Positions 1-35,725 of a DNA stretch of 35,725 nucleotides are shown one piece after another; position 1 is the first letter of the stretch; every line of letters starts with the position of its first letter. The DNA comes from a virus. Position numbers and translations under genes: made by a program. The stretch covers positions 1 through 35,725 of the IMG/VR virus record IMGVR_UViG_3300045988_127927. One strand, written 5' to 3'. The notes below the pieces were generated by a model. It had not been told where the DNA came from. It saw nothing but the letters and a program-made list of their open reading frames with translations, and made no database searches.

Positions 1-55
1 ACCGGTAAAAACAATTGGGCTAATATTCACGCGGCCATTAAAACCGCGCCGCCCG
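1..55. repeat. 55-bp exact terminal duplication, copy 1 (circular-assembly overlap)
   Basis: Bases 1-55 (accggtaaaaacaattgggctaatattcac...ccgcgccgcccg) are identical to 35671-35725. Confidence 0.95.
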
Positions 56-323: not shown

Positions 324-3300
324 GTGGAAGTCTTGGCAGCAATCGAGCTAGCGACTAGTTATCTTACGCTTGCGGTGGAGACTTCCACCCTCTCAAAGCA
401 GGTTTCTAAGGCTCTTAGCGGTGTAGGCTCTATCGGTGCCCGCGCCGGTCGTGAGATTGGCGACGGCATGGCTAATGGCTTTAGCCAGACTAAAAACATT
501 GACATTGAGGGTCTACGCGCGAAGGTCGAGAGTGCAGACCGCGCCCTAGCACAGAGCGCGGATATCATGGCACGAAAGCGCGCGGCCGCCGCGTCCACCA
601 TCAAGCAGGCGCAGGAAAACGTTAGCGCGGCCATGTCTAAAACCGAGGCGGCTAACGCGCGTCTGGGTGCTGCTGAGAGCCGCCTAAACTCGCTTCGTGC
701 TAACGGCGGTAGTGCTGATGCTATCGCGCGTGCTGAGGCGGCGGTGCATAGCGCCCGTGCTAGTGTTTCGACGGCGACGAGCGGGATGTACGGCGCAGAA
801 CAGCGCCTTGTTTCGGCACGCGAGAAGTACACTTCTATTTCGCGCACCGCCGTTTCTCAGACTACCGCGCACGCGCAGGCTTTGAAGGCGGCTAAGGCTG
901 ACTTGCGCGAGGCTGAGGCGGCGACCGGCGCGCTGGGGGGTGCTACCGAGAAGGCAACCGGGCGTTTTGCTGGTTTCCGTAACGCTTTCTCCAAATCATT
1001 TAGCGGTCTACGCGGTACCGTAGACAAGAACATGCAAGAAGCGTTTAGCGGTGTAGCGGCGCAGGCTGAGCACGCCGGGCGTGAGAGCAGCGGCAGGTTT
1101 AAGAGCGCGTTTACTGGTACTATTGCCGCCGCCGGTGGTCTCTTTGCGGGCGTTGGTATTTTCAACGCGGGTAAGGACGCACTGTTTAAGGCGGGCGACC
1201 TTGAGCAGTCCGTAGGTGCGGTTGATGCCGTGTTCAAGGGCTCCGCTGACAAGATGCACGCTTACGCTGACGCGGCATCGGATACCGTCGGTATCTCCAA
1301 GAACGCCTACAACGAACTGGCTAGCGTGCTTGGTGCAAGCTTGAAGAACGGCGGTACGAGCATTGACGAACTAGGCGACAAGACTAACAGCCTTATCGGT
1401 CTTGGTGCTGATTTGGCGTCCCTGTACGGCGGCACCACGAAAGATGCAATTGATGCTATCAGCTCCGCTCTTCGTGGTGAAATGGATCCTATCGAGCGCT
1501 ACGGTATTTCATTGAATGATGCCGCGCTTACCGCTAAGGGTCTAGAGATGGGCATCACTAAGACCGGCGGTGCGTTCACGACTCAGCAGAAGCAGCTAAT
1601 CACTCAAGCGCTGTTGTTCGAGCAGTCTAAGGATGCTCAGGGCAACTTTGCGAAGGAGTCGGATACTTTCGCCCATAAAATGCAGGTGGCTAACGCGCGC
1701 CTGGAGGACATGAGTACTAAAATTGGTGGTGCTATTCTTCCTGTCGTCGTTAAAATTATGGACGTTTTCGGTAAGGCTCTTTCCCCGGTTTTGACTGAGG
1801 TTAGCGGCGGCTTTACCGCATTTGGTGCGGCCTGGGAAAAGTTCGACGGCGATATTACGAGCGCGGGTTTTCCTGGTTTCATGGAGGGCGCGGCATTTGT
1901 CGCGCGTAATGTCTGGGAAACGATTAAAAACGCTTTCCAGAATGGAATTATTCCGCTATTCCGTGACCATGTAATGCCCGTACTAGATACCGTCGGTACG
2001 GCGTTCATGGACTTTTTCAAGGGCATTTACGGTTTTCAGGATTACGGCGAACCGGTCAGTGTTTTTAATCAGATTGGCGGCGCTATCCGTGATATCGGTA
2101 AGTGGCTTGTCGAAAATGTGGGCTTGTGGGCACCTTTTGCCGCCGGTATTACGGCAGCGTTTACCGCATGGAGCACTTATCAGAAAACTATTACCCTGGT
2201 TAAGGTTGCGCAGGAGGCGCTAAACAAGGCATCGGCGGCATTTAGCAAGACTAACGTTATTTTGGTCGTTATTGGCTTGATTGTCGGCGGCCTGATTTTG
2301 GCGTATAACAAAATCGGCTGGTTTAAGGATTTTGTAGACAATTCAATTAAGGTTATCGGCGACGTTTTTGTTTGGCTGTATGAAAATGCGGTAAAGCCCG
2401 CGTTTGAATGGATCGTCGAGGCAATTAAGGGCGTAATTGATTGGTGGAATACCTCTTTTGTGCCCGCTTTCAATGAAGGCGTAAAAATTGTTGGCGACGT
2501 TTTCAACTGGCTGTACGAGAACATTGTTAAGCCGGTATTCGAGGGCGTAAAGGGCGCAATTGAAGGCGTTGTTGATTGGTGGAACACTTCGTTTGTTCCG
2601 GCGTTTGACGCGGGCGTTAGGGCTGTCGGTGCTGTTTTTGAGTGGCTTTACAATAATGTTGTTCAGCCGGTTTGGACGGCTATTAAAACCGTTATCGCGG
2701 TCGTTATTGCTGTTATCCTTACCATTTTCGACGGTTTGAAGGCTGTCGTTGAGAATGTTCTAGCACCTATTTTCAAGTGGCTGTACGAGAATATTATTAT
2801 TCCGGTCTGGAATGGAATTAAGGATATTATTTCTGGTTTCCTGGACTGGTTTAATAACACGCTTGTGCCCGCCGTGAAAACCGTTATTGATATTCTGGGT
2901 AATATCTTTAATTGGCTCCGTGATAACGTCGTCATGCCCGTGTGGAATGGCATTAAGGGCATTATTGACGGCGTTGTTCAGTGGTTCAATAACACCGTAG
3001 CGCCGCTATTCCAGACCGCATCTAATATTATTGGCGACATTTTTAAATGGCTGTGGAATAACGTTGTTTCCCCGGTTTGGGAAAACATTCGCCGTGGTAT
3101 TGATGTTGTCGTGCAGTGGTACAGCGGCGTTGTGCAGCCGCTTATTAAGTCGGTTACGGACGCTATCGGCTCTGTATTCCGCTGGCTGTACGATAATGTT
3201 GTTAAGCCCGTCTGGGATTCGATTCAGAATGTCATCAGGGCGTTTACCGACTACTTTAACGGCGTTATTTTCCCGGCGATTAAGGCTACTATTGACGCTA

Positions 3301-4814
3301 TTTCTTCGGCGTTCCGCTGGTTGCTGGATAACGTGGTACGCCCGGTATGGGACGGTATTCAGAGCGTCATTAGGGGCGTGTGGGAAAACGGAATTAAGCC
3401 CGTATTTGACGCGCTTACTAATTTCGTTACCCGTACTATTCCCGACGCTTTCCGTAACGCGGTGGACGCTATCGGTCGTTTCTGGAATGGCATTGTTGAT
3501 GTTGTGAAGCAGCCGGTTAAGTGGGTTTTGCAGACCGTCGTTAATGATGGTTTTATCCGTAACTTTAATAACCTTGCAGGCACTTTCAACATTGGTAAAA
3601 TTCCTGAGATTAACCTCTCAGGTTGGGCAACCGGTGGTTATACCGGTAAGGGCGGCAAATATGAGCCCGCCGGTATTGTCCACCGTGACGAGTTCGTCAT
3701 TAGGAAAGAGGCGCGGCAGCGTTTCGAGAGGGAAAATCCCGGCGTTCTGGATCATCTGAACCGTACCGGTGAACTACCGGCGGCCTCGCTGGTTGGTGCT
3801 AGTGCGCCGCGTGTCGGTGAATCCTACGCCGCGCCGTTCGGTGTGCGTGATAGCCGCGTGCCCGGCTTCGATATCGGCGGCGTGATATCCGACGCTATTA
3901 ACACTGGTGTAAATGTTGTAAATGCTGGTGTAAATGCTGTACGTGAGCTTGCAGGCACGGCGGCGGGTAAGGTTCTGGACGTGGCTATCACCCCGGCTAA
4001 GAACCTCATTGCTGGTATCGCTGGTTTGTTCCCCGGCTACGCGGGCGACGTGATGCGCGGCGGCGGTGACGCGATTCTCGACGGCGCTAAGAACTGGGTT
4101 GTTGAGAAGCTCAAGGGCAAGGACGAGCACGGCAGGGACGCGGCAAGCGCTCACGCCGTGGCCCCGTCCGGCGGCGGCGTGATGCGCTGGCGTGATACCG
4201 TCGTGCAGGCGCTGGGTATCGCCGGTTTGCCCGCTACCGACGCTTATATCAATGCGTGGTTGAGCCAGATTCAGAGTGAATCTAACGGTGACCCGAACGT
4301 TACACAGAGCGGGTATGTCGATATCAACACGATTACCGGCGATTTGGCTATGGGTCTGGTTCAGGTTATCGGTGCGACGTTCGCCGCGTTCCGTGACCCG
4401 TCGTTGCCTAATAACCGTTTGGATCCGCTGGCTAACCTGGTTGCGGGTATGCGCTACGCTACCGCGCGCTACGGTTTCGGCGGGCAGTTGGGGGTTATCG
4501 GTCATGGCCACGGCTATAGCGGCGGCGGTCTAGTGAATGGTTCTACCGCGTTTAAAAACGCGATTGTTCCTTCTCTTTATGACCGAGGCGGTAAAATTAA
4601 GCAGGGTGTGCAGGTGATTGACCATCGCCGCGCTACCCCTGATTACGTGCTGACCGATAGCCAGTGGAAGACCATGTATTCTATTGCGAACCACACGGCA
4701 CAGAGCACGACTAACGCCGGTATTACTATCGGCAACGTCTACGGTCTGGATGCCGTGGACGTGGCAGAGGAGATTATGAAGAGGAAGCGTCGAGAGGAGC
4801 TACTGAGTGCCTGA
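324..4814 (+). CDS. tape measure protein (1496 aa) with C-terminal lytic transglycosylase (SLT-like) domain
   Basis: It is the largest ORF and sits after the chaperone pair. The N-terminus is Ala-rich coiled coil and there are hydrophobic central segments and W-rich 45-aa repeats. The motif WLSQIQSESNGDPNVTQSGYVDINTITGDLAMGLVQV (about nt 4250-4370) resembles an SLT/lysozyme-like catalytic region. Confidence 0.95.
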   Translation: MEVLAAIELATSYLTLAVETSTLSKQVSKALSGVGSIGARAGREIGDGMANGFSQTKNIDIEGLRAKVESADRALAQSADIMARKRAAAASTIKQAQENVSAAMSKTEAANARLGAAESRLNSLRANGGSADAIARAEAAVHSARASVSTATSGMYGAEQRLVSAREKYTSISRTAVSQTTAHAQALKAAKADLREAEAATGALGGATEKATGRFAGFRNAFSKSFSGLRGTVDKNMQEAFSGVAAQAEHAGRESSGRFKSAFTGTIAAAGGLFAGVGIFNAGKDALFKAGDLEQSVGAVDAVFKGSADKMHAYADAASDTVGISKNAYNELASVLGASLKNGGTSIDELGDKTNSLIGLGADLASLYGGTTKDAIDAISSALRGEMDPIERYGISLNDAALTAKGLEMGITKTGGAFTTQQKQLITQALLFEQSKDAQGNFAKESDTFAHKMQVANARLEDMSTKIGGAILPVVVKIMDVFGKALSPVLTEVSGGFTAFGAAWEKFDGDITSAGFPGFMEGAAFVARNVWETIKNAFQNGIIPLFRDHVMPVLDTVGTAFMDFFKGIYGFQDYGEPVSVFNQIGGAIRDIGKWLVENVGLWAPFAAGITAAFTAWSTYQKTITLVKVAQEALNKASAAFSKTNVILVVIGLIVGGLILAYNKIGWFKDFVDNSIKVIGDVFVWLYENAVKPAFEWIVEAIKGVIDWWNTSFVPAFNEGVKIVGDVFNWLYENIVKPVFEGVKGAIEGVVDWWNTSFVPAFDAGVRAVGAVFEWLYNNVVQPVWTAIKTVIAVVIAVILTIFDGLKAVVENVLAPIFKWLYENIIIPVWNGIKDIISGFLDWFNNTLVPAVKTVIDILGNIFNWLRDNVVMPVWNGIKGIIDGVVQWFNNTVAPLFQTASNIIGDIFKWLWNNVVSPVWENIRRGIDVVVQWYSGVVQPLIKSVTDAIGSVFRWLYDNVVKPVWDSIQNVIRAFTDYFNGVIFPAIKATIDAISSAFRWLLDNVVRPVWDGIQSVIRGVWENGIKPVFDALTNFVTRTIPDAFRNAVDAIGRFWNGIVDVVKQPVKWVLQTVVNDGFIRNFNNLAGTFNIGKIPEINLSGWATGGYTGKGGKYEPAGIVHRDEFVIRKEARQRFERENPGVLDHLNRTGELPAASLVGASAPRVGESYAAPFGVRDSRVPGFDIGGVISDAINTGVNVVNAGVNAVRELAGTAAGKVLDVAITPAKNLIAGIAGLFPGYAGDVMRGGGDAILDGAKNWVVEKLKGKDEHGRDAASAHAVAPSGGGVMRWRDTVVQALGIAGLPATDAYINAWLSQIQSESNGDPNVTQSGYVDINTITGDLAMGLVQVIGATFAAFRDPSLPNNRLDPLANLVAGMRYATARYGFGGQLGVIGHGHGYSGGGLVNGSTAFKNAIVPSLYDRGGKIKQGVQVIDHRRATPDYVLTDSQWKTMYSIANHTAQSTTNAGITIGNVYGLDAVDVAEEIMKRKRREELLSA
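2346..3425 (+). repeat. eight exactly phased 135-nt (45-aa) tandem repeats inside the tape measure gene
   Basis: Units start at 2346, 2481, 2616, 2751, 2886, 3021, 3156 and 3291. Each has the pattern x-G-D/N-hFxWLY(E/D)N-VV-P-VW..I...I..VV.W(W/F)N..V.P with Trp at codon 10. A further degenerate unit follows to about 3500. Confidence 0.85.
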
Positions 4815-15221: not shown

Positions 15222-15242
15222 GTTCTACCTTTCGACATTTAT

Positions 15243-15272
15243 ACTATAAACCTATCTATGGGGTGAACACAA
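15243..15272 (-). promoter_or_regulatory. promoter copy P1 (leftward): TTGTGT-18 bp-TATAGT
   Basis: The minus strand reads ccTTGTGTtcaccccatagatagGTTTATAGTATAAATGtcgaaaggtagaacATG. This is near-identical to the four rightward copies. Confidence 0.7.
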
Positions 15273-15502: not shown

Positions 15503-15560
15503 TTTTACTAGGGGGGGAGGGTTATTTTACTAGGGGGGGTAGGGTTATTTTACTAGGGTA
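15503..15560 (+). repeat. 2.6 tandem copies of the 22/23-bp iteron-like repeat TTTTACTAGGGGGGG(T)AGGGTTA
   Basis: Copies at 15503-15524, 15525-15547 and 15548-15560 (partial). Confidence 0.9.
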
Positions 15561-15610
15561 AATAGAAGTAATTAAATAGAAGTTAAATAAATAGAAGTAA
15601 TTAAATCGAA
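15560..15610 (+). repeat. four tandem copies of the AT-rich 14-15-bp repeat AAATAGAAGTAATT
   Basis: Reads aaatagaagtaatt / aaatagaagttaaat / aaatagaagtaatt / aaatcgaagac. Confidence 0.9.
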
Positions 15611-15648
15611 GACGCGCGCGGGGCGCGGCGGGAATGATTGCAAGCACC

Positions 15649-15660
15649 GGGGGGGGGGGG
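15649..15660 (+). repeat. G12 homopolymer tract
   Basis: Twelve consecutive G, 50 nt upstream of the replication-organiser start codon. Confidence 0.9.
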
Positions 15661-15710
15661 CTATCATGGAGCCAGACCCACGCAACAATAATTTTTGAAA
15701 GGATCTGAAA

Positions 15711-17103: not shown

Positions 17104-17161
17104 TTGCGTTGCGCCCCCTGAAAGGTTTATACTATAAATGTAAGGCAACGAAGACCTTACA
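17104..17161 (+). promoter_or_regulatory. promoter copy P2 (TTGCGT-18-TATACT) plus 5' leader hairpin
   Basis: -35 at 17104-17109, -10 at 17128-17133, hairpin TGTAAGG-9 nt-CCTTACA at 17139-17161, then AGAAACCCAAACCGAAAGGAA. Confidence 0.7.
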
Positions 17162-18842: not shown

Positions 18843-18912
18843 TTGTTTCCCCTCATAAATAGATTTATACTATAAATGTAAGGAAAACAAAGGAACCACC
18901 GGAAACCTTACA
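18843..18912 (+). promoter_or_regulatory. promoter copy P3 (TTGTTT-17-TATACT) plus 5' leader hairpin
   Basis: -35 at 18843-18848, -10 at 18866-18871, hairpin TGTAAGG-22 nt-CCTTACA at 18877-18912. The upstream AT-rich block gctggaaaattttctaaatttt is identical to that of P5. Confidence 0.7.
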
Positions 18913-18937: not shown

Positions 18938-19309
18938 ATGGAACTCACCGCTAAGGACTTCACCGCACAGCTGGCCGCTAAGGGTTACACCCCCGGTATC
19001 GACTTCGACGTTGATAACGGCGACGAACCGCACACCGTGAAGCTCACTGGCGCGATCACCTTTAACGGCGCAGATGGTTTTATGGACTTCCGCAACGCAG
19101 AGGAATACTACGGCATCACCTGTGCAGAGTATGAAGACCTCGCGTTCTTCTCCAAGACCTACCCGCTTACCGAGGCACAGATTACCGACATCGAAGAAGG
19201 CGGCGAACCCGGCAACGCAGAACAGGAAGAAAAGTTCTTCGACGCATGGCGTGCAGCTCTCGACGGTATCGGTATCGACCTGAACGACATTCCGGTTTCC
19301 AGCCGCTAA
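18938..19309 (+). CDS. highly acidic protein (123 aa), first gene of cassette P3
   Basis: By my count about 26 D/E against about 8 K/R. Strong RBS GAAAGGAAA. Lies between the exonuclease and RecT genes. Confidence 0.75.
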   Translation: MELTAKDFTAQLAAKGYTPGIDFDVDNGDEPHTVKLTGAITFNGADGFMDFRNAEEYYGITCAEYEDLAFFSKTYPLTEAQITDIEEGGEPGNAEQEEKFFDAWRAALDGIGIDLNDIPVSSR

Positions 19310-21139: not shown

Positions 21140-21189
21140 TGGCGTACCCGGCGCGGGAAAAATTTTTTTGAAAAATCTTTGATTCTGGC

Positions 21190-21245
21190 TTGCTTTCCAC
21201 CCCACACAAGGTTTATACTATAAATGTAAGGCAAAGAGCCTTACA
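21190..21245 (+). promoter_or_regulatory. promoter copy P4 (TTGCTT-18-TATACT) plus 5' leader hairpin
   Basis: -35 at 21190-21195, -10 at 21214-21219, hairpin TGTAAGGC-5 nt-GCCTTACA at 21225-21245. An AT-rich block lies upstream at 21155-21180. Confidence 0.7.
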
Positions 21246-21271
21246 GAAACCCAAGCCGAAAGGAAACCCCA

Positions 21272-21451
21272 ATGTTGGAGTACTACGAAATTCAGGAATA
21301 CGTTACCGAGGTAGCAGCAGGTAACTACCCGTTCCGAGTAATCGACGCGGTAACCGCCGATATTTACGAACGCGGCGTAGCCGTCGAGATGGAAGACCTC
21401 AAGGCATACCCGCGAACCCGTGAACTTCTCAAGATTCACAACGCGGCCTAA
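21272..21451 (+). CDS. 59-aa acidic protein, first gene of cassette P4 (absent from the ORF track)
   Basis: ATG after CCGAAAGGAAACCCCA. Translation: MLEYYEIQEYVTEVAAGNYPFRVIDAVTADIYERGVAVEMEDLKAYPRTRELLKIHNAA. A gapless alignment gives 20/59 identities to the 23125 ORF. Confidence 0.75.
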   Translation: MLEYYEIQEYVTEVAAGNYPFRVIDAVTADIYERGVAVEMEDLKAYPRTRELLKIHNAA

Positions 21452-21466
21452 CAATCAACCAACTAA

Positions 21467-21489
21467 GCCCCGCCCTAACCGGGCGGGGC
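21467..21489 (+). terminator. GC hairpin GCCCCGCCC-5 nt-GGGCGGGGC
   Basis: Same arms as the hairpins at 17625 and 23321. Confidence 0.5.
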
Positions 21490-21503
21490 ACCCCTAGCAA
21501 ATC

Positions 21504-22079
21504 ATGGCAAATCAGTTTTACAAATCAGAAACATGCTCACAGTGCGGTAACCCCTGGGAAAAACCCGATCTGGTCAATTGCCGCCGGTGCAAACAGTGGG
21601 AACTCAAACGCGCCCGCACCCGCCGCAAAAAGGCAGAGAAAGCGGGTGAGCTAGAGCGCAAGCGCAAAAACAAGGAGTGGGCCGCAACCCATTGCTACAT
21701 TTGCGGTTCGCTTATGGATAATCCAGACCCCAAATGCTACCGGTGCCGCGAACGCATCAAGCGCCGCGAAAAATGGCTAGAACGCCGCGCCGAACGCATG
21801 AAACCGAACGACCTAAACAACCTAGAAGGCGTAAGGAAGTTCCTACAGGCGCGCCGCCGCCGCCTCAACCAAGACCCCCACACCCCCCCATCGAAGGAAT
21901 CGACACATGAAACACCCCATCACCGGGCGACCCCTAACCATCACCGCCGCCGCGCTCGCAACAGTACCGACCGGCTTTTTTCTCGCCGCGCTCATCACCG
22001 GCGGCGGCGTGAACATCGGCAGCTCTATTCTCACCCTCGCTACGTGGTGGGTGGGTGTGCTGATCGTGGCATTGTTTGA
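21504..22079 (+). CDS. zinc-ribbon protein (two CxxC...CxxC pairs), basic; 3' end uncertain
   Basis: Contains CSQCGNPW...CRRCKQW and CYICGSL...CYRCRERI. The last ~57 codons overlap the 21907 gene and read as low-complexity His/Arg sequence. A C7 tract lies at 21883-21889. Confidence 0.55.
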   Translation: MANQFYKSETCSQCGNPWEKPDLVNCRRCKQWELKRARTRRKKAEKAGELERKRKNKEWAATHCYICGSLMDNPDPKCYRCRERIKRREKWLERRAERMKPNDLNNLEGVRKFLQARRRRLNQDPHTPPSKESTHETPHHRATPNHHRRRARNSTDRLFSRRAHHRRRREHRQLYSHPRYVVGGCADRGIV

Positions 22080-22122
22080 GGCCAACCCGCGCGACGCGCG
22101 AACCAACCGAGAGGAACACTAA
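21907..22122 (+). CDS. small membrane protein (71 aa, two TM)
   Basis: ATG after CGAAGGAA. Hydrophobic segments LTITAAALATVPTGFFLAALI and ILTLATWWVGVLIVALF. Confidence 0.7.
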   Translation: MKHPITGRPLTITAAALATVPTGFFLAALITGGGVNIGSSILTLATWWVGVLIVALFEANPRDARTNREEH

Positions 22123-22124
22123 TC

Positions 22125-22763
22125 ATGCGTATTATCGAATTGGAAAAGTACCAAGCACCCGGCAAGCTCTGGCACATTGTCACTACCGAGGCGGTAGACA
22201 AGCTGCGCACCACGGCTATTATTTTCGCTGACACCCCGGCGAAAACCTACATTTCGCTTGTCGCCGCCGCTGAAATCGCAGGCGTAAGTGAAACCGGCGT
22301 ACGCGACTATCTCAAGAAGCACGGCGCGCGGCCTAAGCTATTCACCGTCCCGGCTAACGTCAATCGCACCGGACAGGCGCGAAAAATGGCGTTTATCGAC
22401 CCGCTTACCATGTTCCATATTCTCTTAGAGGTAGACCCGCGCGAACAGAGCGTTAGGGGTTGGTTCCATGACCTAACGCACTTCGACGGCGACGAAATCC
22501 CCAAATTCTGGGGCATGACGAATGTTCGAGAGGCGGCGATTATCGAAGATAAGGCGCGCGAAATCGAACTACTGGAAATTCCAGACTTTACCCCGCCCGC
22601 CCGCGTCGAGTTTGACGCTACCGGCGGAATCGAGCAGCTGAACCGCATCATCTCAGACCTACACGCCCCGTACCATGTACGAGTGAAGGCGCTACAGATT
22701 CAGCATGAGGTGAATCAGCTCGCTAATACCGTAGACAAGCTGAATGAAGGAAAGGACGCATAA
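22125..22763 (+). CDS. HTH-containing DNA-binding protein (212 aa)
   Basis: ISLVAAAEIAGVSETGVRDYLKKHG looks like a helix-turn-helix. The C-terminus is coiled coil. Confidence 0.6.
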   Translation: MRIIELEKYQAPGKLWHIVTTEAVDKLRTTAIIFADTPAKTYISLVAAAEIAGVSETGVRDYLKKHGARPKLFTVPANVNRTGQARKMAFIDPLTMFHILLEVDPREQSVRGWFHDLTHFDGDEIPKFWGMTNVREAAIIEDKAREIELLEIPDFTPPARVEFDATGGIEQLNRIISDLHAPYHVRVKALQIQHEVNQLANTVDKLNEGKDA

Positions 22764-22764
22764 A

Positions 22765-23007
22765 ATGCGCATGACTCGACAGATTATCAAGCTCTCAAGC
22801 TACCGCGTGAAGGGTGTAACTTTCGCCGTGGAGTTTGACTATGACAAGCCGGGTGACCGCCGCACTAAGATTGGGCAGGCGTTGAAGTCAATCATTGGTA
22901 TTCATGAGCTGAATTATCTGAGCAATCAGGCAATTAAGATTATGGGTAGCGGTGAATCCGCGCGTGAGGTGTGGAGCTATGAGGTGGTGGAGACTGAGGA
23001 TATTTAG
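22765..23007 (+). CDS. hypothetical protein (80 aa)
   Basis: The ATG at 22765 lies 8 nt after GAAGGAAAGGA. The track start at 22744 sits inside the upstream gene. Confidence 0.6.
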   Translation: MRMTRQIIKLSSYRVKGVTFAVEFDYDKPGDRRTKIGQALKSIIGIHELNYLSNQAIKIMGSGESAREVWSYEVVETEDI

Positions 23008-23040
23008 CTGGAAAATTTTCTAAATTTTCTTGGTTTTGGC

Positions 23041-23098
23041 TTGCTTTGCACACCCCAATAGGTTTATACTATAAATGTAAGGCAAAGGAGGTCTTACA
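23041..23098 (+). promoter_or_regulatory. promoter copy P5 (TTGCTT-18-TATACT) plus 5' leader hairpin
   Basis: -35 at 23041-23046, -10 at 23065-23070, hairpin TGTAAG(G)-loop-(T)CTTACA at 23076-23098. The palindrome GAAAATTTTC lies upstream at 23011-23020. Confidence 0.7.
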
Positions 23099-23124
23099 GA
23101 AACCCAAACCGAAAGGAGCTAGCA

Positions 23125-23304
23125 ATGCTGGCACGTCACGAAATTCTCGAATCCATCACCACCGCAGCATACGGCGAAATCTCGACCGCCGTTCTGGAAG
23201 CCGCGGCAACCGAGATTTGGGAAAATAACAGCTTCGAGACTATGGCAGATTTTGAAGCCTACGATAAGACCTGGGAAATCGTCGCAAAGCACGACGCTAA
23301 GTAA
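23125..23304 (+). CDS. 59-aa acidic protein, first gene of cassette P5 (absent from the ORF track); paralogue of 21272-21451
   Basis: ATG after CCGAAAGGAGCTAGCA. Translation: MLARHEILESITTAAYGEISTAVLEAAATEIWENNSFETMADFEAYDKTWEIVAKHDAK. Confidence 0.75.
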   Translation: MLARHEILESITTAAYGEISTAVLEAAATEIWENNSFETMADFEAYDKTWEIVAKHDAK

Positions 23305-23320
23305 CCCCTAACCACATAAC

Positions 23321-23347
23321 GCCCCGCCCGCTAACCCCGGGCGGGGC
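23321..23347 (+). terminator. GC hairpin GCCCCGCCCG-7 nt-CGGGCGGGGC
   Basis: Followed by CACCAAACCCCAAACCCGAAAGGAA, as after the 17625 hairpin. Confidence 0.5.
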
Positions 23348-23380: not shown

Positions 23381-23779
23381 ATGGCAATGTCTTACGCAGA
23401 AGCCAAAATCTGGAATGATGAACACCTCCCGATCTTGAACCGTATCGGTATCACAACGGGCGTACGAGATGACCGGTACGGTGACCCCGCCGGTGCATTT
23501 GTCGAAATTGTCTACACGGTACACGGCAGGCTTAAGCGCGCGGCTGATCTAATGTCAAACGACCATAGCGAATTTGCCCTAGCCGTCGCCGAACGTCTGA
23601 AAGAATTTGCGGGTATCGGCGGCAAATACGAGCAGCAGGCCGCCGCCGTAATCAACGCCCTAACCGAACTCGACCGTGTACACCGCATTACCGAACTAGA
23701 GAATGAGGCAGAAGAGCACGAGCGCGCCGCTAGTAAGGCGTACAAGAAGATTAAGGCTCTCATCTCATTCAAGCCCTAA
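23381..23779 (+). CDS. hypothetical protein (132 aa) with C-terminal coiled coil
   Basis: RBS CGAAAGGAA. Confidence 0.65.
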   Translation: MAMSYAEAKIWNDEHLPILNRIGITTGVRDDRYGDPAGAFVEIVYTVHGRLKRAADLMSNDHSEFALAVAERLKEFAGIGGKYEQQAAAVINALTELDRVHRITELENEAEEHERAASKAYKKIKALISFKP

Positions 23780-35584: not shown

Positions 35585-35725
35585 TAGCCTGTCTCAATTC
35601 ATTTAAAGAGCATGAAGACGAGGTACGCGCCCGGCTTCTTGAACTGGGTTTGAATTGGGACGGGAAAAGAACCGGTAAAAACAATTGGGCTAATATTCAC
35701 GCGGCCATTAAAACCGCGCCGCCCG
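35581..35725 (+). CDS. start of the -1 frame extension of the chaperone (gpT part), continuing to 300 after the junction
   Basis: GTA ATA GCC TGT ... AAA AGA ACC GGT contains no stops and is in phase with 1-300. Confidence 0.8.
35671..35725. repeat. 55-bp exact terminal duplication, copy 2
   Basis: Identical to 1-55. Confidence 0.95.

What the first reader, a model, noticed from the sequence alone, without database searches (positions are those of the whole stretch)
21272..23304. Two paralogous 59-aa acidic proteins, missed by the ORF track, are the first products of cassettes P4 and P5
ORFs 21272-21451 and 23125-23304 each fall just below the track's 60-aa cut-off. Each starts at the same distance from the conserved leader/RBS. 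A gapless alignment over the same length gives 20/59 identities: ML..(Y/H)EI.E..T..A.G.....V(I/L)(D/E)A...(D/E)I(Y/W)E......M.D..AY..T.E....H.A. By my count both are net acidic, roughly -6 and -9. Small, acidic, duplicated proteins placed as the first gene behind strong early promoters fit the usual profile of phage host-takeover or anti-defence proteins (anti-restriction, anti-CRISPR and similar). I recognise no known family.
Basis: partly seen in the sequence, partly recalled or inferred. Interest (0 to 1): 0.8.

Follow-up and report, generated by a model that had tools for sequence, protein, structure and literature searches.

The report
Orphan small acidic early phage proteins
Two real, related 59-residue acidic proteins head two early operons of an uncultured phage, probably of oral Rothia bacteria; they form a new orphan family with a confidently predicted four-helix fold, but their suggested anti-defence role is plausible and untested.

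Summary
ORFs 21272-21451 (A59) and 23125-23304 (B59) align without gaps at 20/59 identities (BLASTP E 8e-11; 0 of 100,000 shuffles reach this). Net charges are -5 and -8. Each starts 7 nt after the same CGAAAGGA ribosome-binding site, behind two of five near-identical promoters.

Both are genuine genes. dN/dS is 0.12 (A59) and 0.29 (B59), indels are in frame, and about 90 homologue clusters exist. AlphaFold2 predicts the same four-helix fold for both (pLDDT 96 and 95).

No known family matches in Pfam, PHROGs, NCBIfam, PADLOC, PDB sequences, a profile scan of 1.84 billion proteins, or Foldseek against PDB and BFVD.

The window is a complete 35.7-kb siphovirus with no integrase hit. Its host is probably Rothia. 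Each gene sits between a 5' stem-loop and a G+C-rich 3' hairpin. B59 keeps this layout in a second phage lineage behind a different promoter. Either gene can be absent or decayed, but none of 22 genomes lacks both.

Best reading, confidence about 0.4: abundant immediate-early proteins that bind and block a host factor. Whether that factor is a defence system is unproven. The family is new, but the kind of object is familiar, so interest is moderate.

The parts
21156..21225 (+). Promoter P4. It has an A/T-rich UP-like tract (21156-21182), a -35 TTGCTT (21190-21195), an 18-nt spacer and a -10 TATACT (21214-21219). The 13-bp palindrome TTTATAcTATAAA (21212-21224) overlaps the -10.
   Evidence: One of five near-identical copies in the window, against 0 expected by chance. 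Coordinates were read. Promoter function is inferred from the sigma-70/sigmaA consensus and has not been measured.
21226..21244 (+). 5' leader stem-loop GUAAGGC-AAAGA-GCCUUAC, at the predicted transcript start.
   Evidence: Minimum free energy -12.0 kcal/mol for 21226-21274, z = -4.7, 0 of 200 shuffles fold as well. All four rightward cassettes have the same stem. A stem of different sequence occupies the same place before B59 in lineage-2 phage L080 (-24.9 kcal/mol, z = -5.8).
21257..21264 (+). Shine-Dalgarno motif CGAAAGGA, 7 nt before the A59 ATG.
   Evidence: Seven copies in the window against 1.35 expected; six of them lie just upstream of early-gene start codons.
21272..21451 (+). A59: a 59-aa acidic protein (net -5, pI 4.6) predicted to have four helices (residues 4-15, 21-34, 40-44, 49-58).
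   Evidence: dN/dS 0.12. AlphaFold2 pLDDT 96.2, pTM 0.82.
21467..21489 (+). G+C-rich 3' hairpin GCCCCGCCC-uaacc-GGGCGGGGC with no U-run, 16 nt after the A59 stop codon.
   Evidence: -22.9 kcal/mol, z = -4.8. The motif occurs exactly three times in the genome, always after the first gene of a cassette.
23007..23076 (+). Promoter P5. It has an UP-like tract (23007-23033), a -35 TTGCTT (23041-23046), an 18-nt spacer, a -10 TATACT (23065-23070) and the palindrome at 23063-23075.
   Evidence: Sequence read.
23077..23097 (+). 5' leader stem-loop GUAAGGC...GUCUUAC.
   Evidence: -8.7 kcal/mol, which is not better than shuffled sequence on its own (z = -0.6). The case rests on its conserved position and stem across cassettes and genomes.
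23110..23117 (+). Shine-Dalgarno motif CGAAAGGA, 7 nt before the B59 ATG.
23125..23304 (+). B59: a 59-aa acidic protein (net -8, pI 4.4; family range -7 to -14) with the same four predicted helices as A59.
   Evidence: dN/dS 0.29. AlphaFold2 pLDDT 95.0, pTM 0.77.
23321..23347 (+). G+C-rich 3' hairpin GCCCCGCCCG-cuaaccc-CGGGCGGGGC with no U-run. A second copy of the CCCAAACCCGAAAGGA leader follows it and serves the next gene (ATG at 23381).
   Evidence: -25.8 kcal/mol, z = -4.5. Repeat D8; motif count. The hairpin is conserved after B59 in lineage-2 phages L078 and L080.

Best explanation
A59 and B59 are paralogous, non-enzymatic, cytoplasmic four-helix proteins. I propose that they are made first and in excess from two of the phage's five near-identical host-type promoters, and that they act by binding and blocking a host protein at the start of infection.

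Shown:
- They are real, selected genes and the first cistrons of their cassettes.
- Each cassette has the order promoter, 5' stem-loop, strong ribosome-binding site, 59-aa gene, G+C-rich hairpin, downstream genes.
- The B59 gene with its 3' hairpin travels as a unit between two phage lineages that use different promoters.
- Each paralogue is individually dispensable.

Inferred:
- The 5' stem-loop stabilises the mRNA. The 3' hairpin acts as a leaky terminator or 3' stabiliser. In Actinobacteria, hairpins without a U-tract have been proposed to terminate transcription (my own knowledge). Together these would make the first protein accumulate well above the distal products, as a stoichiometric inhibitor requires.
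- The target is a host factor, most likely a basic or nucleic-acid-binding one such as a nuclease or defence component, or part of the transcription machinery. The two paralogues would cover the same or variant targets.
For: Real genes and paralogues.

Fold and size: both proteins have the same confident fold. With only 59 residues, no cysteine and one invariant histidine, there is no room for catalysis.

Acidity: D+E is 19-22%, and B-type proteins average a net charge of -11.

Expression layout:
- The first-cistron position is identical in about 22 genomes.
- The 5' stem-loops and 3' hairpins are stable: -22.9 and -25.8 kcal/mol after A59 and B59, -31.0 and -31.7 kcal/mol for the segments after the other two first genes.
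- The GCCCCGCCC...GGGCGGGGC hairpin occurs only after first genes.
- In a second phage lineage B59 is again first, behind a different promoter, with a 5' hairpin of different sequence and the same 3' hairpin.

Accessory behaviour:
- Where A59 or B59 is absent, the leader is fused directly to the next gene.
- B59 is broken by four independent internal deletions, nonsense mutations or frameshifts.
- No genome of 22 lacks both paralogues.

Independence from neighbours: intact B59 precedes at least five unrelated or divergent downstream genes, so it does not depend on a particular phage partner. The Zn-ribbon gene persists in genomes without A59.
Against: - No expression or binding data exist.
- Nothing matches any known anti-defence, anti-sigma or DNA-mimic protein, by sequence or by fold.
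- Acidity is moderate and not unique in this genome.
- dN/dS of 0.12-0.29 with variability concentrated in loops (helix 0.45 bits, loop 0.78 bits) does not show the diversifying selection expected at an arms-race interface.
- 'Never both lost' is not statistically significant: about 0.6 double losses are expected among the 16 genomes sampled without regard to the family.
- The 3' hairpins lack U-runs, so termination is conjecture. They could equally be processing sites or recombination scars.
- The P5 5' hairpin is not more stable than shuffled sequence.
Confidence: 0.4

Rival explanations
1. Phage-directed regulator or adaptor. In this reading A59 and B59 bind RNA polymerase, a sigma factor or a phage protein. 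Their role would be to time the switch from the five identical early promoters to late transcription or replication, as small early factors such as T4 AsiA do (my own knowledge). They would not counter defence.
For: - The family is confined to phages that share this early-region design, and it is nearly core: one or both copies are present in 22 of 22 genomes, and one copy in the second lineage.
- Purifying selection is strong.
- The phage has no RNA polymerase gene and no recognisable late regulator among its Pfam hits, so some early ORFan must control late genes.
- The proteins are small and all-helical, like AsiA.
Against: - Neither paralogue is individually essential, and B59 decays repeatedly, which is unusual for a core timing factor.
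- Foldseek against the PDB found no match with E below 1, and Pfam gave no hit.
- The second lineage uses different promoters yet keeps B59. This argues against a promoter-specific role.
Confidence: 0.25
2. Chaperone, antidote or partner of a phage-encoded product of the same operon. One candidate is neutralisation of the very basic Zn-ribbon protein downstream of A59.
For: An acidic A59 sits directly before a basic Zn-ribbon protein. That ORF has net +30 in the window's extended version. Small acidic partners of basic proteins are common (my own knowledge).
Against: - Genomes without A59 keep the Zn-ribbon gene, placed directly behind the promoter.
- Intact B59 precedes at least five different second genes: p132/146, p140, p202/204, p138/120 and p107.
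- The second lineage has B59 in yet another context.
Confidence: 0.1
3. The ORFs matter mainly as translated leader elements. Their translation, together with the 3' hairpin, would tune expression of the downstream genes, and the peptide itself would be unimportant.
For: The ORFs are very short, promoter-proximal and immediately followed by a strong hairpin. Where A59 is present, the next gene lacks a Shine-Dalgarno motif.
Against: - Conservation at the amino-acid level and dN/dS of 0.12-0.29.
- The two paralogues keep the same confidently predicted fold at 34% identity, with dS saturated at 1.43.
- No alternative pairing overlaps the ORF.
- The stop codon lies 16-19 nt before the hairpin.
Confidence: 0.04

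Closest known systems
T7 gp0.3 Ocr, and DNA-mimic anti-restriction proteins in general (ArdA, T4 Arn, T7 gp5.9). This comparison rests on my own knowledge.
   Same: Small and acidic with no enzymatic motif. The gene is the first cistron behind strong host-type early promoters, so the product appears before anything else. Non-essential accessory genes.
   Different: - No sequence or profile match and no fold match in the PDB.
- Only 59 aa, with 19-22% D+E, against roughly 27-30% for Ocr and ArdA.
- The predicted compact four-helix unit has no evident B-DNA-like array of carboxylates. This could not be examined because no model coordinates were available.
Anti-CRISPR (acr) operons. This comparison rests on my own knowledge.
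   Same: Small ORFan proteins of 50-150 aa, often acidic. They sit at the head of a very strong early promoter, move between unrelated phages as a module, and vary in presence between close relatives.
   Different: - No HTH (Aca-like) regulator follows; the downstream genes are a Zn-ribbon protein or a hypervariable slot.
- No match to any solved Acr by Foldseek against the PDB.
- The CRISPR status of the host is unknown.
T4 AsiA, T7 Gp2, and other small early proteins that bind RNA polymerase or sigma. This comparison rests on my own knowledge.
   Same: Small early proteins, all-helical in the case of AsiA, acidic, and acting stoichiometrically by binding.
   Different: No Pfam or PDB sequence hit and no fold hit. 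Either paralogue can be lost.
Start-associated sequences of cluster K mycobacteriophages. This comparison rests on my own knowledge.
   Same: A conserved motif that includes the ribosome-binding site (here CCCAAACCGAAAGGA) is repeated just upstream of a subset of start codons in an actinobacteriophage.
   Different: The motif sequence differs. Here it is combined with repeated promoters and hairpins. No functional test is possible with these tools.

Membership tests
Ocr (T7 gp0.3) / ArdA DNA-mimic anti-restriction proteins | Sequence or profile membership in the Pfam Ocr or ArdA models, or in any homologous cluster. | tested here: not met
   Pfam returned no families even at E <= 1. The profile search of 1.84 billion representatives found only the family itself plus weak hits that are probably compositional. 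The PDB sequence search returned nothing.
Ocr (T7 gp0.3) / ArdA DNA-mimic anti-restriction proteins | A fold resembling solved DNA mimics. | tested here: not met
   Foldseek of both models against the PDB gave a best E of 1.6 and 2.9. Against BFVD the best E was 1.2.
Ocr (T7 gp0.3) / ArdA DNA-mimic anti-restriction proteins | A very high density of surface carboxylates that imitates the DNA backbone. | tested here: inconclusive
   D+E is 19-20% in the window copies and averages 22% in B-type proteins (net -7 to -14). This is acidic but below classical mimics. Surface geometry could not be examined.
Ocr (T7 gp0.3) / ArdA DNA-mimic anti-restriction proteins | Inhibition of type I restriction-modification or of another DNA-binding defence enzyme. 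| not testable with these tools
   This needs plating or biochemical assays.
Anti-CRISPR operon | An adjacent aca gene encoding an HTH repressor. | tested here: not met
   The downstream genes are a Zn-ribbon protein (after A59) or a variable gene (after B59). Neither gave a significant HTH hit.
Anti-CRISPR operon | Similarity to a known Acr in sequence or structure. | tested here: not met
   Searches found none.
T4 AsiA-type anti-sigma factor | A match to the AsiA family in sequence or fold. | tested here: not met
   No Pfam hit and no PDB fold hit.
Leader peptide / attenuator uORF | The peptide sequence is itself unconstrained, and translation couples to alternative RNA hairpins. | tested here: not met
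   dN/dS is 0.12 and 0.29. Both paralogues have a confident conserved fold. Only a single stable hairpin lies downstream, with no alternative pairing into the ORF.
PHROG phrog_18669 (unknown function) | A significant profile match. | tested here: not met
   E = 0.025 over 19 residues for A59 only, and nothing for B59.

The most novel reading that the evidence does not exclude
A59 and B59 found a new family, with a new fold, of counter-defence or host-shut-off proteins specific to phages of oral Actinobacteria (Rothia). The portable unit of strong promoter, 5' stem-loop, small gene and U-less GC hairpin would then be a recognisable expression cassette that flags such genes, and the hypervariable slot behind it, in uncultured actinophages.
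Probability: 0.3. Interest if true: 0.55.

Novelty: new member of a known kind. Interest (0 to 1): 0.35.

Why it matters
Phages of Rothia are almost uncharacterised. One 2026 paper notes a single previously characterised phage for R. dentocariosa (PMC13532340).

This phage lineage is common in human oral metagenomes; one A59 variant alone is recorded on 89 contigs. If these two proteins neutralise a host function, they would give a first handle on phage-host conflict in an abundant oral actinobacterium. They would also add a new small fold to the inhibitor repertoire.

The repeated promoter, stem-loop, gene and hairpin design could be used to find comparable genes in other uncultured actinophages. 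If the proteins have no host target, they remain two of the many conserved phage ORFans.

Tried and rejected
1. Homology searches, all negative:
- Pfam, PHROGs, NCBIfam and PADLOC.
- PDB sequences with the family profile.
- Word-indexed search of 5.8 billion proteins.
- Exhaustive profile search of 1.84 billion representatives.
- Foldseek of both models against the PDB and of the A59 model against BFVD.

2. A third diverged copy in the window, or a shared domain in the other first-cistron proteins p136 and ac123. A six-frame hmmsearch found only the two known copies.

3. B59 as an obligate partner of the downstream 132-aa protein. Early loci suggested that a lost or decayed B59 went with a different second gene. 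This was rejected, because intact B59 also precedes p140, p202/204, p138/120 and p107.

4. 'At least one paralogue is always kept' as proof of redundancy. The observed count is 0 of 22 genomes lacking both. Only about 0.6 double losses are expected among the 16 genomes sampled independently of the family, so this is not significant.

5. A prophage or integrated context. The family was not found in 185,579 GTDB species genomes, and the phage proteins scanned gave no integrase or repressor Pfam hit.

6. A close cultured relative. There was no megablast hit, and TerL is at most 40% identical to any GenBank phage.

7. Known RNA families and tRNAs: none in the window.

8. Literature on the source assemblies and on Rothia phages: nothing relevant to these proteins.
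Full report
**1. The observation**

The two ORFs exist exactly as described: 21272-21451 and 23125-23304, + strand, ATG start, 59 codons.

BLASTP gives E 8e-11. None of 100,000 shuffles exceeded 15 identities. Identities are spread evenly, 10 in each half. The similarity is therefore not just a spill-over of the duplicated promoter and leader into the 5' end of the genes (repeat D5).
- Spacing: both ATGs lie 7 nt after an identical CGAAAGGA.
- Promoter numbering: the promoter core TTTATACTATAAATG occurs five times. One copy is on the minus strand at 15236-15250 and drives the RusA operon. Four are on the plus strand at 17126, 18864, 21212 and 23063.

**2. Are they genes?**

Yes.

- The GC content by codon position is gene-like.
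- A profile search found 91 protein clusters, almost all 58-63 aa, in two subtypes. A-type begins MLEYYEIQ. B-type begins MLxxHEILES and is much the commoner.
- Nei-Gojobori dN/dS among distinct alleles taken from related contigs is 0.12 for A59 (n = 18) and 0.29 for B59 (n = 14). Between the paralogues, dN is 0.67 and dS is saturated at 1.43, so the duplication is old.
- Length variants are in frame.
- AlphaFold2, run with the family alignment, gives the same four helices (residues 4-15, 21-34, 40-44, 49-58) for A59 (pLDDT 96.2, pTM 0.82) and for B59 (pLDDT 95.0, pTM 0.77).

**3. The setting**

The window is a complete phage genome of about 35.67 kb with a 55-bp assembly overlap and 54.8% G+C.

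- Structural and lysis genes: a siphovirus tail module (Dit, Gp37-like protein, a 1496-aa tape-measure-like protein), an HK97-type head module, an HNH protein with small and large terminase subunits, and an Amidase_2 endolysin.
- Early region: an HTH_36 Rep-like protein, YqaJ exonuclease, RecT, SSB and RusA.
- Lifestyle: no integrase or repressor family was detected. No tRNA or Rfam element was found.
- Relatives: nothing close exists among GenBank phages. TerL is at most 40% identical to any of them, and the nearest belong to phages of Arthrobacter and Microbacterium.
- Host: identical A59 proteins are annotated in RefSeq as Rothia mucilaginosa (on a 35,246-bp contig that is the whole phage) and as Rothia sp.. 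The nearest endolysin relatives are largely actinobacterial, led by Sinomonas at 41% identity. The host is therefore probably oral Rothia. This is an inference from assembly labels, not a demonstration.

**4. Anatomy of the cassettes**

Each of the four rightward promoters has the same parts in the same order.

- An A/T-rich UP-like tract.
- TTGCTT, an 18-nt spacer, and TATACT.
- A 13-bp palindrome overlapping the -10.
- A stem-loop GUAAGG...CCUUAC at the predicted transcript start.
- The leader ACCCAAACCGAAAGGA.

Every first cistron is followed by a very stable G+C-rich hairpin without a U-run. The first cistrons are p136, the very acidic ac123, A59 and B59. The folded segments have minimum free energies of -22.9 to -31.7 kcal/mol.

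The motif GCCCCGCCC...GGGCGGGGC occurs exactly three times in the genome, after p136, A59 and B59. After B59 the hairpin is followed by a second copy of the RBS leader, which serves the next gene (repeat D8).

I infer three things from this layout; none has been shown.

- The 5' stem-loop protects the mRNA.
- The 3' hairpin acts as a leaky terminator or 3' stabiliser. Hairpins without a U-tract have been proposed as terminators in Actinobacteria (my own knowledge).
- As a result, the first protein is made in excess over the distal ones.

**5. Comparative genomics**

I collected loci in three ways: through the family itself, through the promoter pattern and through RecT. This gave 22 distinct genomes of the same lineage in which both slots are readable.

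| State | Genomes |
|---|---|
| Both paralogues intact | 12 |
| A59 intact, B59 cleanly absent | 3 |
| A59 intact, B59 broken | 4 |
| B59 intact, A59 absent | 3 |
| Neither present | 0 |

- The four broken B59 alleles carry different internal deletions, nonsense mutations or frameshifts.
- Where a gene is absent, the promoter, leader and RBS abut the next gene's ATG.
- 'Never both lost' is suggestive but not significant. About 0.6 double losses are expected among the 16 genomes sampled without regard to the family.
- The gene after the B59 hairpin is hypervariable, with at least six alternatives. Intact B59 occurs with most of them. B59 therefore does not depend on a particular neighbour.
- Likewise, the Zn-ribbon gene persists without A59.

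B59 also occurs as a single copy in a second phage lineage of 31-32 kb. That lineage has an SPP1-type portal, a different TerL and capsid, and an N6/N4 methyltransferase. There B59 is again the first gene after a promoter, but the promoter has a different sequence. In L080 the 5' stem-loop also has a different sequence (GUAGGGGG...CCCCCUAC, -24.9 kcal/mol). The same 3' GC hairpin and RBS leader follow the gene. The gene plus its 3' hairpin is thus a portable unit, and its promoter-proximal position is conserved.

**6. What it is not**

No family matched in any of the following.

- Pfam, PHROGs, NCBIfam or PADLOC.
- PDB sequences.
- An exhaustive HMM scan of 1.84 billion representatives. It returned only the family itself plus a few weak hits that are probably compositional.
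- Foldseek against the PDB, for both models (best E 1.6 and 2.9).
- Foldseek against BFVD (best E 1.2).

The family was also absent from 185,579 GTDB species genomes. The window holds no third copy.

**7. Interpretation**

The proteins are too small for catalysis and have no cofactor motif, no cysteine and only one invariant histidine. They are acidic: B-type proteins average a net charge of -11. They are promoter-proximal in a layout that should favour abundance. They are individually dispensable, and the module is mobile.

The best-supported mechanism is a stoichiometric binder or inhibitor of a host protein, made at the very start of infection (confidence about 0.4). This resembles T7 Ocr, anti-CRISPR operons and small proteins that bind RNA polymerase. 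That resemblance comes from my own knowledge and is a lead, not a test. Every membership criterion I could test was not met or was inconclusive.

Three points speak against a specifically anti-defence role.

- Acidity is moderate, and several other proteins of this phage are comparably acidic.
- Purifying selection is fairly strong.
- Variability sits in loops rather than on a helical face.

The rivals, in order of weight:

- A phage-directed timing or RNA polymerase factor (0.25).
- A partner of an operon product (0.1), weakened.
- A mere leader ORF (0.04), contradicted.

**8. Verdict**

This is a new orphan family with no detectable structural relatives. It is still a familiar kind of object, a small early phage ORFan, and its function is undetermined.

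Noticed in passing
window 15236-15250 (-), 17126-17140, 18864-18878, 21212-21226, 23063-23077 (+): There are five near-identical promoters. Their -10 region lies within a perfect 13-bp palindrome, TTTATAcTATAAA, which could be an operator for a common regulator. The rightward four also share an A/T-rich UP-like tract.
   Followed up: partly
window 15503-15611, and 15650-15661: The divergent intergenic region before the Rep-like gene holds 2.5 copies of a 23-bp repeat (TTTTACTAGGGGGGGTAGGGTTA), 3.7 copies of a 14-bp A/T-rich repeat (TAAATAGAAGTAAT) and a run of 12 G. This looks like an iteron-type replication origin.
   Followed up: partly
window 18938-19309: The first gene of the RecT/SSB cassette encodes a 123-aa protein with net charge -18 and pI 4.05. 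It is the most acidic early product and a stronger DNA-mimic or Gam-like candidate than A59 or B59. It has no Pfam, PHROG or PDB match. In some relatives an unrelated 91-aa gene takes its place.
   Followed up: partly
window 23381-23779, and the equivalent slot in L008, L009, L019, L033, L040, L042, L044 and L054: The gene right after the B59 hairpin is a hot-spot of replacement. At least six alternative genes occupy it (132/146, 140, 202/204, 120/138, 107 and 45 aa) between otherwise near-identical phages.
   Followed up: partly
window 21504-22079: The Zn-ribbon ORF is 191 aa here but 134-135 aa in relatives, and it runs over the 71-aa membrane-protein ORF (21907-22122). This suggests a lost stop codon or a frameshift in this genome. 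It has no Shine-Dalgarno motif when A59 is present, but it uses the strong leader RBS in genomes without A59.
   Followed up: partly
L078 and L080 (31-32 kb contigs); L081 (69-kb contig); L001 (66-kb contig): A second phage lineage shares B59 and parts of the early region but has different structural genes. L081 joins lineage-2 early genes to lineage-1 late genes. In L001 the fourth promoter slot directly follows the 148-aa gene, and cassettes I-III are missing. These may be real mosaics, deletions or misassemblies.
   Followed up: no
window 2364-3211, within ORF 324-4814: Seven tandem 135-nt (45-aa) repeats lie in the 1496-aa ORF, which is probably the tape-measure protein.
   Followed up: no
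window 1-55 and 35671-35725: An exact 55-bp terminal duplication shows that the window is a circularly assembled complete genome.
   Followed up: no
P0087, P0088, P0090; L038 5250-5300: Several B59 remnants are internal deletions. Some join short repeated peptide or DNA motifs (HEI...TEI; EIWE...TWEI). This suggests slippage or illegitimate recombination inside the gene.
   Followed up: partly
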